From: Escherichia phage phi G17
Reading direction: 5' to 3' (one strand)
DNA: 64,000 nt
Sequence record: NC_070870.1
Of the stretch, positions 34,245-49,401 are shown one piece after another. The position numbers and the translations under genes were made by a program. Position 1 is the first letter of the stretch; every line of letters begins with the position of its first letter. The notes beneath the pieces were generated by a model. The model was given only the letters and a program-made list of their open reading frames with translations. It made no database searches and was not told the origin of the DNA.

Positions 34245-35555
34245 TTAGAAAGTTAGACCACCATACTTACTAGCAAGATTGCCATAGAACACTACACGCT
34301 TACGAGCACGAGACACAGCGACGTAAAGCAGTCGAGCAACCATATCAGGTTGGCGACAGCTTGAGAGGTCATCTGCATCAATGAATATTGTGTCGTAAGT
34401 AGAGCCTTGTGATTTATGAACAGTACATGCATGAGTAGCACGAAGGTCTGGAATGGTTTCTTTAAGACGGAAATATGGTTCCCAGTTCTTCTCTTTACCT
34501 AACCACTTAACCAAACGATTGAAGTAGTCTGGGTCGGTAGGAATTGGGACTTCACTAACAATACCACCATAACCAAGGTCTAGGGTACTATCACGGACTT
34601 CTAGTTCCAGGTCGCCTGTAACTTTAATCATGCGAGTACTACTATCTTGGTCAATGAGTTTTACGTCTTGTTCGATAGACAGACGGTCTTCCACACCTAA
34701 GCGAACGGCTGAGTTAGAGACTAATTGTTCGCCAATGGAGTATTCTCCCACGTAGCCGTTAGCTTCACGAATGTAGTTATTGTAATTGATAACCTGGTCA
34801 TTGGTGTAAGCAACAATACGGCTATTGGTTGGTTGAGTGAAGTGACTGAGAACCAGTTTCTCCATCTCTTCTCCTTGTACCCAGTCAATAATTCCTGGGA
34901 TACATTTAATAGGCAGGAAGCCTGTCTTACCTTCCACCGTATCACGCAATTGCTGGTGCAACGCTTTGAGTTCCGGTGTATCGGTACGCATCTGTTCAGT
35001 CAGATAGTGTGTTGGGATATTGCCTGCATACACTGGAGACTTATTCTCTTTAACAGGTAGAAGCTGAGAAGCATCACCTACGAATACCAGTTTGCACTGG
35101 TGAGTACCTTCACGAGCATACTTAAGTAACTGACGGTCAATCATGGATGCTTCGTCTACGAAGATGATTTTGTTCTTCTTAATGGCGAACGATTTAGAAG
35201 GTACGACGTTAGCCTCACCAGTCTTAAAGTCATTCTTAACAATCAATCCCTGGAAGGAATGATAGGTAGAGGTTGGACGTCCAGTAGCTTGAGCCAGAAC
35301 TTCAGCAGCCTTGTTCGTGGTCGCAGTCATTACGACTTCATTATACAGAGGCTTGGTTCCCATCAGAGAGCAAGTTTCCATATATGCAGGCATAGTGTCA
35401 TCAATGAGGTGCGACATCAGGAATGTCTTACCAGTTCCCCCAGGGCCACTGATTCCAAATTCTGAGGCATTAGGGTCGAGCAGGAAGTCGAAGAACTCCT
35501 TCGCAACCGCTTCTTGCCCCTGGTTCAATGGGGCTTTGGTAGGTTTGGAAAACAT
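34245..35555 (-). CDS. SF1 RecD/Dda-like DNA helicase (436 aa)
   Basis: Walker A GISGPGGTGKTF; C-terminal TVHKSQGSTYD motif typical of RecD-like helicases; GGAG upstream of ATG. Confidence 0.7.
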   Translation of the reverse strand: MFSKPTKAPLNQGQEAVAKEFFDFLLDPNASEFGISGPGGTGKTFLMSHLIDDTMPAYMETCSLMGTKPLYNEVVMTATTNKAAEVLAQATGRPTSTYHSFQGLIVKNDFKTGEANVVPSKSFAIKKNKIIFVDEASMIDRQLLKYAREGTHQCKLVFVGDASQLLPVKENKSPVYAGNIPTHYLTEQMRTDTPELKALHQQLRDTVEGKTGFLPIKCIPGIIDWVQGEEMEKLVLSHFTQPTNSRIVAYTNDQVINYNNYIREANGYVGEYSIGEQLVSNSAVRLGVEDRLSIEQDVKLIDQDSSTRMIKVTGDLELEVRDSTLDLGYGGIVSEVPIPTDPDYFNRLVKWLGKEKNWEPYFRLKETIPDLRATHACTVHKSQGSTYDTIFIDADDLSSCRQPDMVARLLYVAVSRARKRVVFYGNLASKYGGLTF

Positions 35556-43654: not shown

Positions 43655-43685
43655 TAAATAAAAAAGCCCACGGGTTAGGTGGGCT
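43655..43685 (-). terminator. Intrinsic terminator (minus strand) AGCCCAC-ctaaccc-GTGGGCT + TTTTTATTT
   Basis: 7-bp stem and T-run. Confidence 0.55.
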
Positions 43686-43765
43686 TGGGTTAGGAGATGG
43701 ATAAGCAATGAGCTGGAAGTAACTTCCACAAATAGCCCTACTAGAGGGCTATTCAGGTAAGTTAC

Positions 43766-43981: not shown

Positions 43982-44488
43982 TTATTTACTGCTTCTCGCA
44001 GCTACTGGTTTGTTTTCCTGGTTATTGTACTTGCCTGTGTATGTGGCAGGTTCTTGAACCAGATGAAATAGTACTTGAGCTATCCCGGAACCAGCCGGGA
44101 TATGTAATTTCTTACGCCCGTGATAGACCAGTTCAAGGGTAAGATACCCTTTCCATCCTGGTTCTATTACGGTATTGAACACTGATAGTGCACGTCTTGC
44201 CCATGTAGACTTATCGTGAACGATAGCTACACAGGACGGGGACATGTTGAACTTCTCAATTGCTGAAGCCAATGCGAATTTACCAAGATGGTGTGATATT
44301 TGTTTTCCATCAACGACTTTCACCATTGGAATCAACCCAAATAAGCGATAGAAGGTAATGTCCTGCTTTATGCGTATGTCGTAACCAGCTTCACCCAATC
44401 CATAGCTTACACCATGCTCGGATACCTTATGGTCTGGGACATCCAGCAACTGAGATGAACGATATAGAGAATTACCATTAACAACCAT
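43982..44488 (-). CDS. dcd: dCTP deaminase (dUTPase-fold) family protein (168 aa)
   Basis: STWARRALSVFNTVIEPGWKGYLTLEL and GIAQVLF resemble dCTP deaminase core motifs. Confidence 0.6.
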   Translation of the reverse strand: MVVNGNSLYRSSQLLDVPDHKVSEHGVSYGLGEAGYDIRIKQDITFYRLFGLIPMVKVVDGKQISHHLGKFALASAIEKFNMSPSCVAIVHDKSTWARRALSVFNTVIEPGWKGYLTLELVYHGRKKLHIPAGSGIAQVLFHLVQEPATYTGKYNNQENKPVAARSSK

Positions 44489-45663
44489 TATTTCATTCCT
44501 TTAGGGATATGAACTACCTCCCCAAAAGGTACGGTAGCACTAGGGTTATTCAGAACACACCAGATGATTGGAATATCAAACGGGAGTTCTTCCATTGGGC
44601 GAACGTACATATCAGAGAATATGATTGCAGCGGTTGGCTTATTCTTAATAATCCATTCGCGTACTGGTTCAAGGTTTGTACCACCACGACCAGTAATCTT
44701 AATCTCTTCAAAAGTATCTTCTTCAGTGATGTCTATTTCTTCTTGGATAATATCGTCGAAGGTAATAAGGGACATCTTCTTAGGATTGAACTGGCTCTTA
44801 ACGTAGGCAACCTCTGAGTTAAAACGCAGAGAGTCAGCACTACTGATAGAACCAGATACATCCTCAAAGTATGCTAAATGTCGTAAACGTCCTTCATCAT
44901 CTTCCAGGGATGGTAGATAGATGTCAGTGAAACGACGGTTAGGTCTGGCCCACGTATAGCGTGAGTCATCAATGTCAGTGAAGAAGTCCATAAGGACTTC
45001 CTGCCAAGGAACCACTGGTTTAAGGAATTGGGTAATAACCTCTTCCATATGACCAGCACCTTTACCTGGCATCACTCCACCAGCCATCTTCTGGCTTTGC
45101 ATTGCACGTACTACGTTGTTGACAACAGCACCCTGGGACTGCCCCGAAGAGGGAGCTTTCATGTCGCCAGCAAGACCTGCTCCGGCACCCCCTGACGGCT
45201 GCTGCCTTTTCTGTGGGTTCTTCATCAGGTCATCGTAGATGTCTTCTTCGACCCATCCTTTATATTGAGGGTCTTTGCAAATACCTTCGTCGATACCAGT
45301 GAACTTGTAACCATCTTCCTCTAACTGAAGGTTAATGAAGTGGTCACATGCCTGGTTCCAGACTTCTGGGTCACGGCTTCCACAACGGATGCCATGCAGA
45401 TATGCCACATGCCAGAGTTCGTGCATTAGCACTGTTTCTCTTGCATCAGGACACATCCAGATAAAGAAGTCTGGGTTGAATCGTAGTTCTATCCCATCGG
45501 TACATGCAGTAGGACAATCCTCACGATTCCATGAGAACTTAAGACTACACAGCAATGAACCAAAGAAAGCAGCACTCCTGCCCAAAAATGCCTGTGCTTG
45601 AATACGGTCATACTCACGCATGAGTTGTTCATCACTAAGTGTGTGCTGAGGTATCTGGTTCAT
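44488..45663 (-). CDS. VWA-domain protein with N-terminal HExxH metallopeptidase-like region (391 aa)
   Basis: MHELWHVAYLHG (HExxH); MIDAS-like DVSGSIS; immediately downstream of MoxR-like ATPase. Confidence 0.55.
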   Translation of the reverse strand: MNQIPQHTLSDEQLMREYDRIQAQAFLGRSAAFFGSLLCSLKFSWNREDCPTACTDGIELRFNPDFFIWMCPDARETVLMHELWHVAYLHGIRCGSRDPEVWNQACDHFINLQLEEDGYKFTGIDEGICKDPQYKGWVEEDIYDDLMKNPQKRQQPSGGAGAGLAGDMKAPSSGQSQGAVVNNVVRAMQSQKMAGGVMPGKGAGHMEEVITQFLKPVVPWQEVLMDFFTDIDDSRYTWARPNRRFTDIYLPSLEDDEGRLRHLAYFEDVSGSISSADSLRFNSEVAYVKSQFNPKKMSLITFDDIIQEEIDITEEDTFEEIKITGRGGTNLEPVREWIIKNKPTAAIIFSDMYVRPMEELPFDIPIIWCVLNNPSATVPFGEVVHIPKGMK

Positions 45664-45670
45664 GATGTAA

Positions 45671-46723
45671 TTATCCGTGAATGTAGCGGGAGATATTGGC
45701 AGCAGCCTTACGCCATTCAGGGGTAGCCTGAATTTCTGGTAATGCTTTGCCTACTGTACGGAAGTACAGAATCTTATGGGTGAACGTTTTAAAGCGTTCA
45801 ATGTACTGAAGAACATCAGCGAAGTTATCTTCAGTGGTCTTGTTAGCCAGATGGTTAACGGTAGCCCAACACAGGTTATTATCTTCCGGCAGTGCACAGC
45901 CCATGGGGTCTTTGACTACCTTCTCAATCGTAATCATACGATTGTATACCTGAGTGAACTGTACAAACTCCACAGCTTTACCCGGTGTAACAAATCCACT
46001 GTAGTAAAGGGAATCTTCATCAGGCAGTGCCCCTTCGGGGCAGTTATGTAAGTCCTTGTTAATGAAGTCCCATGTTCTCGGACACGCGAATGTTTTGTTC
46101 TTATGTGCTGGGTCGAAGTCATGCAGGTAGCCTGGGTTAGCATGTAAGAATGCAACCAGACGTTCATCCCACTCATATGGAATCATTACGTCTTCAACAA
46201 AGATGTCGAAGTTAAGTTCCATTTCGAAGTGTACAACACGAGACTGCATTGCAGTACCCAGTGGGTTAACGATGGCACGGTCAGTAGCTTTGTTACCGGC
46301 ACAGACAATCATCACATTGGGGTGAAGTTTCTTCTGACCGGTCATACGGTCAAGAATCAGCTTGTATGCAGCAGCTACTACTTCTTTCTTAGCTGAGTTG
46401 AACTCATCCAGGAACAGGAGCCAGCCATTATAACCTTCAGGGATTTCATCCCCTTCAATAGGGAACAGGTCAGCGAATGGAATAAATTCTGCACGGTCAC
46501 CATTACGGAATGGTAGACCGGACAAGTCTTCAGGAGCAGAAGTAGACAGACGATGGTCAATCAGCTTCATGCCAAATTCCTCTGCAACAGAACGAATGAT
46601 CGCAGACTTACCCATGCCTGGTGATGAAGTCAGAAACGGAACGTTACCTGCTTGCAAGGCACGGATGATAAAGTTACGGGCTTGACGTGTATTACATACG
46701 GTCAAGGAGTCAATGCTCGCCAT
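45671..46723 (-). CDS. MoxR-like AAA+ ATPase (350 aa)
   Basis: Walker A SSPGMGKSAI, Walker B LLFLDEF, sensor-like CAGNKATDRA; AGGAG upstream. Confidence 0.65.
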   Translation of the reverse strand: MASIDSLTVCNTRQARNFIIRALQAGNVPFLTSSPGMGKSAIIRSVAEEFGMKLIDHRLSTSAPEDLSGLPFRNGDRAEFIPFADLFPIEGDEIPEGYNGWLLFLDEFNSAKKEVVAAAYKLILDRMTGQKKLHPNVMIVCAGNKATDRAIVNPLGTAMQSRVVHFEMELNFDIFVEDVMIPYEWDERLVAFLHANPGYLHDFDPAHKNKTFACPRTWDFINKDLHNCPEGALPDEDSLYYSGFVTPGKAVEFVQFTQVYNRMITIEKVVKDPMGCALPEDNNLCWATVNHLANKTTEDNFADVLQYIERFKTFTHKILYFRTVGKALPEIQATPEWRKAAANISRYIHG

Positions 46724-46757
46724 TTACTTACTCTCCTAAAGTTAATGGAATTGCTAA

Positions 46758-47087
46758 TTAAGATTTAACGCAAGGGTATGCTTTGTGGATTGCCACATTA
46801 ATCATGTCAGCAGGATGGTTCAGTTTTTGGATAGTTGCATCCAACAGAATCTCATCTGCTACTTTGTGAAGTACATGCTTAAGCTGGATACCTTCTGGTA
46901 CGCAGTTATCGGTAATATCCACAGCCATGGATACCATACCCATGTAATAACCTTGGCTCGTATAATCAGGTGTATCGTACTTGTAGGCTTTGGCAGCAGC
47001 TTCCAGCAAGGTTGCACGACTAGATGCTTGAGCACCGAATGAAAGAGCTGATAGAACCACTACAGCAACAGCAATTAAAGTTTTCAT
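46758..47087 (-). CDS. Small secreted/periplasmic protein (109 aa) with signal peptide
   Basis: N-terminus MKTLIAVAVVVLSALSFGAQA (AXA cleavage-like). Confidence 0.5.
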   Translation of the reverse strand: MKTLIAVAVVVLSALSFGAQASSRATLLEAAAKAYKYDTPDYTSQGYYMGMVSMAVDITDNCVPEGIQLKHVLHKVADEILLDATIQKLNHPADMINVAIHKAYPCVKS

Positions 47088-47482: not shown

Positions 47483-47512
47483 CAAAAAAAGACCTCCTAT
47501 TTCTAGGAGGTC
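47483..47512 (-). terminator. Intrinsic terminator (minus strand) GACCTCCTA-gaaa-TAGGAGGTC + TTTTTTT
   Basis: 9-bp stem, 7-T run. Confidence 0.65.
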
Positions 47513-47561: not shown

Positions 47562-48158
47562 TTACAGAGCAGAGTAGGCTAATTGTAGCGTAGTAGATAC
47601 ACCATCTTTGGTAATAGTCAGTTCTGCATCATAAACCCCAGGGCTTGGCTCAGTGCCCCACTTATAACTGATTACCCCGTAACCTAAGGTTGGTTCCAGT
47701 TTAATATCATAGGAAGCTGCTGCTTCCCCTTCCACAGCAAGGGTGATGGTTCCAGTTGAACCAGTAGGCTTAGGTACTACACGGAGGTAGCGTACACCTT
47801 CATATACATCCAAAGTCTCCCCGTCTTGGTACAGGCGGGAAATTTCCTCTGTTTCCGGGTCATAGCGATAAACATCAAACCCAACTGGTACAGGGTCTGA
47901 GCCGGGAACTACTTCATAGATATCCCAGTCGTTAAGGTTGGTCAGGTTGTCCGGGAAGAATGCAGTCTGAGCTACATTTCCACCGTTACGGAAGTAAGCA
48001 ATCTTACGGATACCGTGCCAGATAACATAACTATCCGGGTAGGTAGCATCAGGGTGTTCAAATGAACCGATAGCTACAAAACCATCCTCCATAGAGGGAG
48101 AGGTTGAGTAGTTAATTTTCTTGGTAGATTGTTGAGCAGATACATATACAGTTGGCAT
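47562..48158 (-). CDS. Hypothetical beta-rich protein (198 aa)
   Basis: ORF; part of the terminator-flanked two-gene cassette. Confidence 0.5.
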   Translation of the reverse strand: MPTVYVSAQQSTKKINYSTSPSMEDGFVAIGSFEHPDATYPDSYVIWHGIRKIAYFRNGGNVAQTAFFPDNLTNLNDWDIYEVVPGSDPVPVGFDVYRYDPETEEISRLYQDGETLDVYEGVRYLRVVPKPTGSTGTITLAVEGEAAASYDIKLEPTLGYGVISYKWGTEPSPGVYDAELTITKDGVSTTLQLAYSAL

Positions 48159-48159
48159 C

Positions 48160-49401
48160 TTAGATTTCCTCTTTGTATGACATGCCTAAGTTGGCAGCGA
48201 AGCCCATATTATTGAACTGAAGGTTAATGTTACCACCAACTGGTTGCATATCCACAACGTCGGGTGATGCCAGCATTACTGTAGTTAGGGAGAGGCTATC
48301 AGCCAGTATCTGTACATTTGACAGAGTACAATTCTCATTTGATGAGATTCTGATTGAGTGGTAATACGCACCACTCGCAGAAGATTCAATCATTACTTCT
48401 TGGTCTGTTATTGGTCCCATCAGGATATGTGTACGAGATGCCCCATTAGGACTCATAAACTTAATAACCATAGAACCTGCTTGAGAAAGGGTAGTTGTGA
48501 ACCGGATGGCATTGTACTTACTAGAATCAGTTGCTCCACCCGGATAGGTTAATTCCAGGTATTCATTAGCATCATCATTACCACCGGTATACGTAGCAGT
48601 ACCTGCTGAGTAAGTCCAGGTAGCTTTAGAAGCAGAAGCTGTAGGAGTAGCTGGAGTACCTCCCATAATGCGTTTATAAGCTAGCAGGTCTACTGGAGTA
48701 CCACTGGTTCCAACGTAGTCCTTAAAGCCTCTGTAACCTATCAGGAAGCGTAAATACTTCTGCTCAGGTAATTGCTCAAACTTCAGGGAAAACACACTGG
48801 AGTTCTCTGTATTGGATACAAACTCTGCATCCACAACAGGATGTTCTTTATCAATGATACGACCAATCAGTGGTGTAATTGGTTCATCTGCTTCCACTAT
48901 AAGGTCTGCCTCTTCCAGAGTGAGGTTGGAACCAATGAAGATAGCTGCCCAGCATACCCAGTCATTAGCCTGAGTATAGTAAGCCAACTGGAGAGGCTCA
49001 CCTCCATGCGTTGCACGTAATCCTTGTAAACCTTGGCTCATTTCTTTACGACCTGTAACCATAAGGATGCAGTTCGGATAGGCCATAGTGTAAGGCACAG
49101 TGTATGAGGTCAGTCTGCTCTCGCTGGTATTGAAATCCATTGGACCTGGTTCCAGTGGCTCAGGGCCAGATTGAATCATACGGATAGGATAGTTCATTGC
49201 ATCATCTTGCCCATCTCTGTACAGGAGGTCTTGAACGTGATGGAACATGACATGGTTAAGCGGATTGCCTAAAATATCTTGTCCTTCTTCATGATGGTAT
49301 TCCCCAATAGGTACATACCCATCAAGACCGGCATTCACCTCATAGGGAACTACGGCTATAGCTTTAGGCTTATCTGATTTAAACACTTTACGGTTTGGCA
49401 T
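48160..49401 (-). CDS. Hypothetical protein (413 aa), T/S/G-rich beta-rich C-terminal half
   Basis: ORF with GAGGG upstream; stop abuts next start. Confidence 0.5.
   Translation of the reverse strand: MPNRKVFKSDKPKAIAVVPYEVNAGLDGYVPIGEYHHEEGQDILGNPLNHVMFHHVQDLLYRDGQDDAMNYPIRMIQSGPEPLEPGPMDFNTSESRLTSYTVPYTMAYPNCILMVTGRKEMSQGLQGLRATHGGEPLQLAYYTQANDWVCWAAIFIGSNLTLEEADLIVEADEPITPLIGRIIDKEHPVVDAEFVSNTENSSVFSLKFEQLPEQKYLRFLIGYRGFKDYVGTSGTPVDLLAYKRIMGGTPATPTASASKATWTYSAGTATYTGGNDDANEYLELTYPGGATDSSKYNAIRFTTTLSQAGSMVIKFMSPNGASRTHILMGPITDQEVMIESSASGAYYHSIRISSNENCTLSNVQILADSLSLTTVMLASPDVVDMQPVGGNINLQFNNMGFAANLGMSYKEEI

What the first reader, a model, noticed from the sequence alone, without database searches (positions are those of the whole stretch)
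44488..46723. MoxR-type AAA+ ATPase paired with a VWA protein bearing an HExxH region
Gene order (ATPase then VWA-MIDAS protein) is the classic MoxR-VWA chaperone-like pair. The VWA partner has an N-terminal HELWH metallopeptidase-like motif. The role of such pairs in phages is not established; it could be host takeover or maturation of another protein.
Basis: partly seen in the sequence, partly recalled or inferred. Interest (0 to 1): 0.5.

Follow-up and report, generated by a model that had tools for sequence, protein, structure and literature searches.

The report
N4 gp24/gp25-type ATPase–VWA–peptidase pair
The two genes are real and are the well-known but functionally uncharacterised gp24/gp25 core gene pair of N4-like phages: a MoxR-class ATPase and a partner protein that combines a zinc-peptidase-like domain with a metal-binding VWA domain, probably forming an ATP-driven machine that remodels and cuts another protein.

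Summary
The window is a Gamaleyavirus (G7C-like N4-like coliphage, about 93% nt identity to PhAPEC5).

On the minus strand, 45671..46723 encodes a 350-aa AAA+ ATPase and 44488..45663 a 391-aa protein with DUF2201_N (HExxH zincin-like) plus DUF2201 (VWA). They are orthologues of N4 gp24 and gp25, two of the 14 core genes of N4-like phages, listed as function unknown and as middle transcripts.

All ATPase motifs are conserved, as are HExxH and a complete MIDAS. Fold and profile searches place the ATPase with CbbQ, NorQ, Midasin and dynein (MoxR/AAA_5), and the C-terminal domain with VWA domains. The N-terminal domain is weakly related to M48, minigluzincin and SprT zincins.

The same architecture was described in jumbo phages by Iyer et al. 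2021, who proposed a virion-assembly role. Across about 80 viral loci the pair instead sits at the head of the nucleotide-metabolism and replication module.

Side finding: bacterial cousins occur in a recurrent cassette (retron-type RT, unknown protein, MoxR, DUF2201) in defence islands. In Sulfuricurvum the pair sits next to a PIF1-like helicase and its peptidase motif is degenerate.

The client protein remains unknown.

The parts
45671..46723 (-). gp24-like MoxR/AAA_5-class AAA+ ATPase gene (350 aa)
46604..46630 (-). Walker A / P-loop codons (residues 32-40, TSSPGMGKS)
   Evidence: G38, K39, S40 are invariant in 42 and in 22 homologues and conserved to 23% identity.
46403..46420 (-). Walker B codons (residues 102-107, LLFLDE)
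   Evidence: D106 and E107 are invariant. Also invariant: sensor-1 N144, arginine finger R162, and sensor-2 R216 in the motif PR(T/S)W.
46733..46737 (-). Shine-Dalgarno AGGAG, 9 nt upstream of the ATPase ATG
   Evidence: Sequence read.
45664..45670 (-). 7-nt spacer between the ATPase stop (TAA, 45671-45673) and the VWA-gene ATG (45663), with no clear SD; suggests translational coupling
   Evidence: Sequence read. In G7C an HNH homing endonuclease (gp24.1) is inserted at this junction; it is absent here.
44488..45663 (-). gp25-like gene (391 aa): N-terminal zincin-like domain, linker, C-terminal VWA domain
   Evidence: ORF. Pfam DUF2201_N 3e-55 and DUF2201 8e-34. phrog_1314 2e-143, mislabelled 'HNH endonuclease'. 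AF2 model pLDDT 77 with two confident domains.
45214..45636 (-). N-terminal zincin-like (putative metallopeptidase) domain, residues ~10-150
   Evidence: pLDDT about 90, with a three-strand sheet followed by the HExxH helix H72-87. Invariant H81, E82, H85, N103, A105, D107, I110, N111; near-invariant H90 and R93 in 28 diverse sequences. Weak profile hits to the MJ1213 minigluzincin (0.0099), M48 (0.012) and HtpX (0.036). Pfam M48 and SprT-like each hit 8 of 28 members.
45409..45423 (-). HELWH (HExxH) codons, residues 81-85
   Evidence: Invariant. Lost only in the Sulfuricurvum chromosomal copies (NAxxH).
44899..44952 (-). Conserved basic linker motif W238-x-RPNRR-x5-YLPS (residues 238-255), predicted disordered
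   Evidence: W238, P241, R243, R244, Y249 and P251 are invariant although pLDDT is below 50. A related (S/T)W-x-x-P-x-(K/R)(K/R)...LP(S/G) pattern persists in distant homologues. Candidate docking or cleavage segment (inference).
44491..44886 (-). C-terminal VWA domain with complete MIDAS (D268-x-S270-x-S272, T329, D351)
43982..44488 (-). Downstream dCTP deaminase gene (gp26-like); its ATG overlaps the VWA-gene stop (TAATG). Co-transcribed neighbour, not shown to be part of the machine.
   Evidence: Same order in G7C and in 24 of the viral loci.
47491..47512 (-). Terminator-like hairpin at the upstream boundary of the transcription unit (three small ORFs, ATPase, VWA, dcd, small ORF)
   Evidence: G7C annotates a stem_loop at the equivalent position, after gp17.
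43664..43686 (-). Terminator-like hairpin at the downstream boundary of the unit
   Evidence: G7C annotates a stem_loop after gp27.

Best explanation
The pair is the Gamaleyavirus orthologue of N4 gp24/gp25, a cognate two-component, ATP-driven 'remodel-and-cleave' machine.

Shown:
- The two genes are adjacent, on the same strand and tightly spaced, in one unit bounded by hairpins.
- gp24-like is a MoxR/AAA_5-class AAA+ ATPase with every nucleotide-binding and hydrolysis residue intact.
- gp25-like has an N-terminal zincin-like domain with an invariant HExxH, a conserved basic linker, and a C-terminal VWA domain with a complete MIDAS site.
- Adjacency of the two genes holds from N4-like podophages to jumbo myophages and to bacterial chromosomes.

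Inferred, by analogy with Midasin, CbbQ-CbbO, NorQ-NorD and RavA-ViaA:
- The ATPase forms a ring.
- The VWA protein is its adaptor.
- The MIDAS metal site is completed by an acidic residue of a client protein or of the ring.
- ATP hydrolysis pulls on or unfolds part of the client.
- The zincin domain then cuts the exposed segment, which makes the step irreversible.

Inferred from gene neighbourhood: the client belongs to, or acts on, the DNA-replication and nucleotide-metabolism apparatus made in the middle phase. An example would be the SF1 helicase/replisome or a protein bound to replicating DNA. It is less likely to be a late virion protein.

My confidence in the architecture and partnership is about 0.9. 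My confidence in the replication-linked client is about 0.4.
For: Identity:
- 93% nt identity to PhAPEC5/G7C-like phages, which annotate 'ATPase' and 'VWA-like domain-containing protein'.
- G7C labels the genes gp24 and gp25, 'similar to N4'.
- They are N4-like core genes of unknown function, and middle transcripts in N4 (PMC4193335; PMC2784036).

ATPase class.

VWA/MIDAS.

Zincin domain.

Partnership:
- A 7-nt junction between the genes.
- ATPase upstream in essentially all loci that have upstream sequence; 29 of 61 abut directly.
- Adjacency persists at 22-30% identity in bacteria.
- The highest distance correlation among gene pairs, 0.84 and 0.94 against 0.73-0.88 (weak evidence).

Replication link:
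- Synteny is RNAPII - [ATPase-VWA] - dCTP deaminase/ThyX - rIIAB - helicase - DNA polymerase.
- In several lineages the VWA gene is followed directly by the SF1 helicase (LIT1 and phi176).
- In a second phage lineage it precedes family-A polymerase, primase-helicase and PD-(D/E)XK exonuclease.
- RaK2 has thymidylate synthase nearby.
- The Sulfuricurvum chromosomal operon is MoxR - DUF2201 - PIF1-like helicase, and that helicase is homologous to the window's own helicase.
- Other bacterial cousins sit beside a reverse transcriptase.
Against: - No experiment exists on these genes.
- Being next to replication genes may only reflect the generic layout of the early/middle region. N4's decoration protein gp17 lies in the same region.
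- 'Second structural modules' lie near gp24/gp25 homologues in RPP1 and LIT1.
- In the jumbo phage phAPEC6 the gp24-like ATPase was detected in purified virions, and the pair lies just downstream of virion-protein genes.
- Peptidase activity, ring formation and the ATPase-VWA contact are all inferred.
- The third zinc ligand is unresolved (H90 or D107).
- The Sulfuricurvum copies have lost the catalytic H-E, so the module can work without proteolysis.
- The mirror-tree margin is small.
Confidence: 0.45

Rival explanations
1. Virion-assembly chaperone plus maturation protease. The MoxR-VWA pair folds or assembles a structural component (decoration protein, tail or appendage, or the giant virion RNA polymerase), and the zincin domain processes it. 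This is what Iyer et al. proposed for jumbo phages, and it parallels the MoxR-VWA pair of Acidianus two-tailed virus in tail development.
For: - The proposal and the ATV precedent are in PMC7824862.
- The phAPEC6 gp24-like ATPase (gp265c) was found in the virion proteome with 6 peptides. The pair lies next to head-completion, sheath and neck genes there.
- In N4-likes the pair follows the gp17 decoration-protein slot.
- Virion-protein genes cluster near gp24/gp25 homologues in RPP1 and LIT1.
Against: - The same phAPEC6 list contains thymidylate synthase, topoisomerase and SSB, so carry-over of abundant non-structural proteins is likely.
- gp25-like was not in the part of that list that I saw.
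- The N4 homologues named among RPP1/RLP1 virion proteins are gp52, 54, 56, 59 and 67, not gp24 or gp25.
- The pair is transcribed with middle and replication genes, on the strand opposite to the late structural genes.
- Bacterial homologues exist where there is no virion to assemble.
Confidence: 0.25
2. Host-takeover or counter-defence protease. The machine extracts and cleaves a host protein, such as a defence-system component or a host replication or nucleoid protein, early to mid infection.
For: - Bacterial cousins of both proteins form a four-gene cassette with a retron-type RT, located in defence islands next to BREX, type I R-M and toxin-antitoxin genes. The module therefore operates in conflict settings.
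- Middle-phase timing.
- Presence in many unrelated phage lineages.
Against: - Core-gene status and conservation equal to RNAPII (mean pairwise identity 0.44 and 0.41 against 0.45), across hosts from Escherichia to Roseobacter and Vibrio. This is unlike typical fast-evolving, host-specific anti-defence genes.
- No PADLOC hit for either phage protein.
- No host target is known.
Confidence: 0.2
3. Non-proteolytic activase or metal-cofactor insertase of the CbbQO, NorQD, CoxDE or chelatase type. It would mature a neighbouring enzyme (such as ThyX, dCTP deaminase or ribonucleotide reductase), with the HExxH domain serving only as a metal-binding or structural module.
For: - The closest solved ATPases include CbbQ and NorQ, and the VWA domain resembles NorD and BchD.
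- Nucleotide-metabolism enzymes are recurrent neighbours.
- The Sulfuricurvum copies keep MIDAS, H85, H90 and D107 but lack the catalytic Glu.
Against: - The catalytic Glu of HExxH is invariant in all phage copies, which argues for catalysis.
- The neighbouring enzymes differ between lineages: ThyX, ThyA, or none with a helicase instead.
- There is no Pfam Mg-chelatase or CbbQ_C signal.
Confidence: 0.05

Closest known systems
Bacteriophage N4 gp24 (putative AAA ATPase) and gp25 (vWFA superfamily); the same genes in G7C, PhAPEC5 and other Schitoviridae
   Same: Orthologues. They have the same order, the same position between RNAPII/gp17 and dCTP deaminase gp26, and the same domains. G7C annotates them as similar to N4 gp24 and gp25. 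They are 2 of the 14 core genes.
   Different: Nothing essential. This window lacks the HNH homing endonuclease gp24.1 that splits the pair in G7C and Mimir124.
MoxR AAA+ / vWA with N-terminal metallopeptidase in group 2.2 jumbo phages (RaK2, phAPEC6, 121Q; Iyer et al. 2021)
   Same: Same two-gene architecture and Pfam domains. RaK2 and phAPEC6 annotate the genes as N4 gp24-like and gp25-like.
   Different: Only about 24-25% identity. The proteins are larger (424 and 461 aa). The host phages are myoviruses. The pair lies beside virion-protein genes, and the ATPase was detected in virions.
Cellular MoxR-family ATPase / VWA partner systems: CbbQ-CbbO, NorQ-NorD, RavA-ViaA, CoxD-CoxE, BchI-BchD, and Midasin (AAA ring plus MIDAS domain)
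   Same: AAA_5/MoxR-type ATPase fold and motifs, a MIDAS-bearing VWA partner, and adjacent genes (PMC7159879).
   Different: Those VWA partners carry no zincin domain. Their clients are Rubisco, nitric-oxide reductase, respiratory complexes, CO dehydrogenase, protoporphyrin or pre-ribosomes. The phage ATPase has an extra helical C-terminal region of about 130 aa with no match.
Acidianus two-tailed virus MoxR-type ATPase with a VWA protein (tail development)
   Same: A virus-encoded MoxR-VWA couple (cited in PMC7824862, and PMC7159879).
   Different: No peptidase domain, an archaeal virus, and an extracellular morphogenesis context. No sequence comparison was made here.
Retron-type RT - unknown - MoxR - DUF2201 four-gene cassette in bacterial defence islands
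   Same: The same two-protein module with intact HExxH, MIDAS and AAA motifs, the same gene order and overlapping genes.
   Different: About 25-30% identity. It is preceded by a 980-1050 aa protein with a C-terminal retron-like RT and by a 320-360 aa protein of its own family that has no phage relative. It is chromosomal, next to BREX, R-M or TA genes.
Zincin peptidases M48 (HtpX, BepA), minigluzincins (MJ1213), SprT-like, M78
   Same: An HExxH helix preceded by a beta-strand segment, with weak profile matches.
   Different: E-values are only about 0.01 to 4e-5. The downstream signature H-x2-R-x9-WN-x-A-x-D-x2-IN is particular to DUF2201_N. The third metal ligand is unresolved.

Membership tests
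MoxR-family AAA+ ATPases (broad sense, including the CbbQ/GvpN/NorQ AAA_5 branch) | AAA+ core with Walker A, Walker B, sensor 1, arginine finger and sensor 2 | tested here: met
   G38-K39-S40, D106-E107, N144, R162 and R216 are invariant across 22-42 homologues down to 23% identity.
MoxR-family AAA+ ATPases (broad sense, including the CbbQ/GvpN/NorQ AAA_5 branch) | Profile-level membership (Pfam AAA_3 PF07726 or AAA_5 PF07728 above the curated cutoff) | tested here: inconclusive
   The window protein scores 16.3 bits on AAA_5 against a cutoff of 22; only generic AAA passes. Family members from bacteria pass AAA_5 (39.1 and 27 bits) and AAA_3 (28 bits). The family profile hits Midasin AAA modules at 7e-15. 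Membership therefore holds by transitivity.
MoxR-family AAA+ ATPases (broad sense, including the CbbQ/GvpN/NorQ AAA_5 branch) | Fold closest to MoxR, midasin and dynein AAA modules, with a helix-2 insert and a pre-sensor-1 hairpin | tested here: met
MoxR-family AAA+ ATPases (broad sense, including the CbbQ/GvpN/NorQ AAA_5 branch) | Adjacent gene for a VWA-domain partner | tested here: met
   7-nt junction in the window. Adjacency in nearly all viral and bacterial loci.
MoxR-family AAA+ ATPases (broad sense, including the CbbQ/GvpN/NorQ AAA_5 branch) | Hexameric ring and ATP-dependent remodelling activity | not testable with these tools
   Needs biochemistry, or multimer modelling, which was not available.
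VWA (von Willebrand factor A) domains with MIDAS | Rossmann-like alpha/beta VWA fold | tested here: met
VWA (von Willebrand factor A) domains with MIDAS | MIDAS motif DxSxS ... T ... D | tested here: met
   D268, S270, S272, T329 and D351 are invariant and conserved in all distant homologues.
Zincin metallopeptidases (HExxH) | HExxH on an alpha-helix, preceded by a beta-sheet | tested here: met
   H81-E82-x-x-H85 lies within helix 72-87 after strands 42-45, 53-55 and 59-62, at pLDDT about 90. It is invariant in phage copies.
Zincin metallopeptidases (HExxH) | Identifiable third zinc ligand | tested here: inconclusive
   The candidates are H90 (26 of 28) and D107 (28 of 28, in the motif ACDxxIN). 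Model coordinates could not be inspected.
Zincin metallopeptidases (HExxH) | Homology to a characterised peptidase family | tested here: inconclusive
Zincin metallopeptidases (HExxH) | Peptidase activity | not testable with these tools
   Needs an enzyme assay or N-terminomics.
HNH endonuclease (the label carried by phrog_1314 and many RefSeq records for this protein) | HNH nuclease domain | tested here: not met
   No HNH family hit in Pfam or NCBIfam. The true HNH gene in G7C is the separate inserted gp24.1. RaK2's note traces the label to an older 'putative HNH endonuclease' annotation.
Known anti-phage defence systems (PADLOC v2) | Match to a defence-system protein model | tested here: not met
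   No hit for either window protein.

The most novel reading that the evidence does not exclude
The gp24/gp25 module is an ATP-gated protease that removes or processes a protein on replicating nucleic acid, a phage-scale functional analogue of p97-SPRTN/Wss1. It is evolutionarily the same two-protein engine that bacteria pair with a retron-type reverse transcriptase in a so-far undescribed defence cassette. On this reading phage and host deploy homologous machines around nucleic-acid enzymes, and the phage copy may also interfere with the host version.
Probability: 0.12. Interest if true: 0.7.

Novelty: already known. Interest (0 to 1): 0.33.

Why it matters
gp24 and gp25 are two of only 14 genes shared by all N4-like phages, a large family used in phage therapy and abundant in the sea. 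They are as conserved as the phage RNA polymerase II, yet nobody knows what they do.

This analysis does not change what the pair is. It does narrow the question in three ways:
- All catalytic motifs are intact, so clean point mutants can be designed: K39A, E107Q, E82A and D268A.
- Gene neighbourhood across phage lineages and bacteria points to a replication-linked client rather than a late structural one.
- The cellular cousins sit in a recurrent retron-type RT cassette in defence islands. That cassette could itself be a new defence system and a tractable model for the module's mechanism.

Tried and rejected
- NCBIfam and PADLOC gave no hits for either protein.
- A sequence search of the PDB with the VWA protein found nothing.
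- The 'HNH endonuclease' label (PHROGs, RefSeq) and the 'anti-sigma factor' label (for the Vequintavirus neighbour) were rejected. No domain supports them.
- The MoxR-vWA ternary conflict systems of Kaur et al. 2020 have a different architecture: effectors C-terminal to the vWA domain, a VMAP or iSTAND third component, and DGR-type RTs.
- Retron types X and XIII of Mestre et al. 2020 have other partners, so the RT cassette is not one of those.
- Rfam found no retron msr-like RNA in the cassette loci.
- The third protein of the cassette has no relative near the phage pair.
- The CRISPRi-ART and phage transposon-mutagenesis papers contain nothing on these genes. Literature searches for Schitoviridae+MoxR and retron+MoxR found nothing relevant.
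- The mirror-tree co-evolution test favoured the pair only marginally.
Full report
**What is there.** The window is a G7C-like N4-like coliphage (Gamaleyavirus). The 2.2-kb stretch is 90-93% identical at the nucleotide level to PhAPEC5, PhAPEC7, G7C and about 50 other records. Both ORFs named in the finding exist with exactly the stated limits, but on the minus strand. 45671..46723 encodes a 350-aa protein and 44488..45663 a 391-aa protein.

**Gene junctions.**
- The ATPase has an AGGAG ribosome-binding site 9 nt before its ATG.
- Only 7 nt separate its TAA from the ATG of the second gene.
- The stop of the second gene overlaps the ATG of the dCTP deaminase gene (TAATG).
- Terminator-like hairpins on the minus strand at 47512-47491 and 43686-43664 bracket a unit of three small ORFs, the ATPase, the VWA protein, dCTP deaminase and one more small ORF.
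- The G7C RefSeq record annotates stem-loops at the equivalent places. It names the genes gp17.1-17.3, gp24, gp24.1 (an HNH homing endonuclease, absent here), gp25, gp26 and gp27.

**The ATPase.**
- Pfam gives only generic AAA (27.3 bits); AAA_5 is below its cutoff. PHROGs calls it 'ATPase'.
- Walker A (G38-K39-S40), Walker B (D106-E107), sensor 1 (N144), the arginine finger (R162) and sensor 2 (R216 in PR(T/S)W) are invariant in 42 close and 22 broad homologues, down to 23% identity.
- The AlphaFold model is confident (pLDDT 87).
- A family profile hits Midasin AAA modules at E 7e-15.
- More distant members of the same family pass Pfam AAA_5 and AAA_3 cutoffs.

'MoxR-type' in the broad sense (the AAA_5 CbbQ/NorQ/midasin branch) therefore stands. 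A C-terminal helical region of about 130 residues has no match.

**The partner protein.**
- Pfam finds DUF2201_N 'putative metallopeptidase domain' (E 3e-55, residues 17-253) and DUF2201 'VWA-like' (E 8e-34, residues 263-386).
- The model has two confident domains joined by a low-confidence linker.
- The MIDAS residues D268, S270, S272, T329 and D351 are invariant.
- In the N-terminal domain, HELWH (81-85) lies on a helix that follows a small sheet.
- Over 28 diverse sequences, H81, E82, H85, N103, A105, D107, I110 and N111 are invariant, and H90 and R93 nearly so.
- Profile searches give weak but coherent zincin relatives: minigluzincin MJ1213 (0.0099), M48 (0.012) and HtpX (0.036). Pfam M48 matches 8 of 28 members (best 4e-5), SprT-like 8 of 28 and M78 4 of 28.
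- The linker carries an invariant basic motif (W238-x-RPNRR...YLPS) although it is predicted to be disordered. This makes it a candidate docking or cleavage segment.
- The 'HNH endonuclease' label of phrog_1314 and many RefSeq records has no domain support and appears to be annotation drift.

**What is known.**
- The pair is N4 gp24 ('putative ATPase, AAA') and gp25 ('vWFA superfamily') (PMC2784036; PMC6992544).
- Both belong to the 14 core genes of N4-like phages, are listed as function unknown, and are described as middle transcripts in N4 (PMC4193335).
- RaK2 and phAPEC6 annotate 'gp24-like' and 'gp25-like' genes.
- Iyer et al. [quoted passage not shown] They proposed a role in virion assembly with proteolytic processing, by analogy with the archaeal virus ATV (PMC7824862).
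- I found no experimental study.
- The family is large. There are 701 phage records by tblastn, and 21,659 representatives at 50% identity with E up to 1e-3.

The finding is therefore real and correctly read, but already known as a gene pair. Only its function is open.

**Context in phages.**
- In 80 IMG/VR loci the arrangement is RNAPII genes, then variable small ORFs or gp17-like ORFs, then the ATPase and VWA protein, then dCTP deaminase/ThyX, rIIA/B, the SF1 helicase and the DNA polymerase, all on one strand.
- Where upstream sequence is present the ATPase is practically always there. Of 61 loci, 29 abut directly. In 26 the gap (180-1,200 nt) fits one inserted gene; recurrent inserts are the families f8 and f31, of unknown function.
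- In several lineages the VWA gene is followed directly by the helicase (LIT1 and phi176).
- In another uncultured phage lineage it precedes a family-A polymerase, a primase-helicase and a PD-(D/E)XK exonuclease.
- RaK2 has thymidylate synthase 2 kb downstream.
- Both proteins are as conserved as the RNAPII large subunit (mean pairwise identity 0.44 and 0.41 against 0.45). Their distance matrices correlate slightly better with each other than with other genes. This is weak support only.

**Evidence for the assembly reading.**
- In phAPEC6 the gp24-like ATPase gp265c is in the virion proteome (6 peptides), and the pair lies just downstream of virion-protein genes. The same list contains thymidylate synthase, topoisomerase and SSB, so carry-over is plausible.
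- In N4-likes the decoration protein gp17 and, in some phages, a 'second structural module' lie nearby.

**Context in bacteria.** A scan of one genome per species found 20 loci. Some are N4-like gene clusters inside large bacterial contigs (L002, L003). Two others are cellular architectures.
1. **Sulfuricurvum and other Campylobacterota.** A conserved chromosomal operon encodes an unknown ~420-aa protein, the MoxR ATPase, the DUF2201 protein and a PIF1/RecD-like helicase. That helicase is homologous to the window's own helicase at 34245..35555. In these copies HExxH is degenerate (NAxxH), while MIDAS, H85, H90 and D107 are kept.
2. **A four-gene cassette with overlapping genes.**
   - It encodes a 980-1050 aa protein whose C-terminus is a retron-type reverse transcriptase (PADLOC RT_XIII 2e-70, RT_X 2e-62). 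This is followed by a 320-360 aa protein of its own family, an AAA_5 MoxR ATPase, and a DUF2201 protein with all motifs intact.
   - All five independent look-ups returned this cassette. Its neighbours were BREX BrxL/PglZ, type I R-M HsdM, or PIN/ParD/HipA toxin-antitoxin genes.
   - This branch has more than 1,800 clusters at 90% identity.
   - It is not a PADLOC v2 system. It is not among the retron types of Mestre et al. 2020. It differs from the DGR-linked MoxR-vWA ternary systems of Kaur et al. 2020.
   - No Rfam retron RNA was found, and the third protein has no phage relative.

**How it most likely works.**
- Shown: a cognate, co-translated pair made of an active-looking MoxR-class ATPase and a zincin-VWA protein with a complete MIDAS, kept together over very large evolutionary distances.
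- Inferred from characterised MoxR/VWA systems (Midasin, CbbQ-CbbO, NorQ-NorD, RavA-ViaA): the ATPase forms a ring and the VWA protein is its adaptor. The MIDAS site is completed by an acidic residue of a client, and ATP hydrolysis remodels the client. The invariant catalytic Glu of HExxH in all phage copies argues that a cut then follows.
- Inferred from neighbourhood: the client is linked to the replication and nucleotide-metabolism apparatus of the middle phase. The recurrent helicase, polymerase or RT neighbours in phages and bacteria favour this over a late structural client.

I put about 0.9 on the architecture and partnership and about 0.4 on the replication-linked client. The rivals are:
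- virion assembly or maturation, 0.25;
- host takeover or counter-defence, 0.2;
- a non-proteolytic activase role, 0.05.

**Verdict.** The feature is ordinary in the sense that it is a known, annotated core gene pair whose domain reading has already been published, so its novelty is 'already known'. It remains a real open functional question. The contexts assembled here, especially the retron-type RT cassette in defence islands and the helicase-linked variant with an inactivated peptidase, give concrete handles for experiments.

Noticed in passing
L105-L114, L007, L008, L015 (for example L105:1890-8215, L107:1318-8215, L111:2124-8206): A recurrent four-gene cassette with overlapping genes. It encodes a 980-1050 aa protein with a C-terminal retron-type RT (PADLOC RT_XIII 2e-70), a 320-360 aa protein of its own family, an AAA_5 MoxR ATPase, and a DUF2201 zincin-VWA protein. 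It was found in 5 of 5 look-ups, next to BREX, type I R-M or toxin-antitoxin genes. It is not in PADLOC v2 and not among the Mestre 2020 retron types, and no Rfam retron RNA was detected. It is a candidate undescribed defence system.
   Followed up: partly
L010:3750-9158, and also L011, L016, L017, L019, L020: Sulfuricurvum and other Campylobacterota carry a chromosomal operon: an unknown ~420-aa protein, a MoxR ATPase, a DUF2201 protein and a PIF1/RecD-like helicase. In three loci from long contigs (L010, L017, L019) it occupies the same site, flanked by ExoX and TonB. The DUF2201 copy has lost the HE of HExxH (NAxxH) but keeps MIDAS, H85, H90 and D107, so the peptidase is inactivated while the module is retained.
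   Followed up: partly
window 44488-45663; phrog_1314; many RefSeq records: The gp25-like protein is widely mislabelled 'HNH endonuclease', although it has no HNH domain. The label seems to come from an old annotation (see the RaK2 note) and from the true HNH homing endonuclease gp24.1 that is inserted between gp24 and gp25 in G7C and Mimir124. In Vequintaviruses the upstream neighbour is labelled 'anti-sigma factor' with no Pfam support.
   Followed up: partly
window 47562-48158 and 48160-49401 (minus strand): Two adjacent ORFs (198 and 413 aa) occupy the slot of the N4 gp17 / G7C 'Hoc-like head decoration' gene. Both share only the N-terminal ~60 residues with G7C gp17 and with each other (E 2e-5 and 1e-3), and their C-termini are unrelated. 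Close relatives have a single ORF of 277-320 aa here, so this is a variable, apparently modular decoration-protein locus.
   Followed up: partly
window 46758-47087 (minus strand): A 109-aa protein with a typical Sec signal peptide lies directly upstream of the ATPase. It has a sub-threshold Pfam hit to Rap1a (a type VI secretion immunity protein; E 2.6e-4, 21.9 bits against a cutoff of 27.7). It corresponds to G7C gp17.3 / phrog_11132, of unknown function.
   Followed up: no
L002 (Roseococcus MAG, 297-kb contig), L003 (Mesorhizobium yinganensis isolate, 727-kb contig); P0151 on a 153-kb Mesorhizobium MAG contig: N4-like gene clusters (ATPase, VWA, dCTP deaminase, ThyX; also RNAPII in L002) lie inside very long bacterial contigs. 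This suggests integrated or otherwise resident N4-like elements in Alphaproteobacteria.
   Followed up: no
L070-L103 type loci (for example L072:2115-4888) and L067/L076 type loci (for example L076:5916-9029): Two uncultured phage lineages carry a conserved extra gene between the ATPase and the VWA gene: f8 (~220 aa) and f31 (~300 aa). Neither has a Pfam family. They are possible third components or clients of the machine.
   Followed up: partly
L104 (phAPEC6, MK817115: 195567-208832): The virion mass-spectrometry list for phAPEC6 includes the gp24-like MoxR ATPase (gp265c). It also includes thymidylate synthase, a topoisomerase subunit and SSB, so either non-structural proteins are packaged or they co-purify.
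   Followed up: partly
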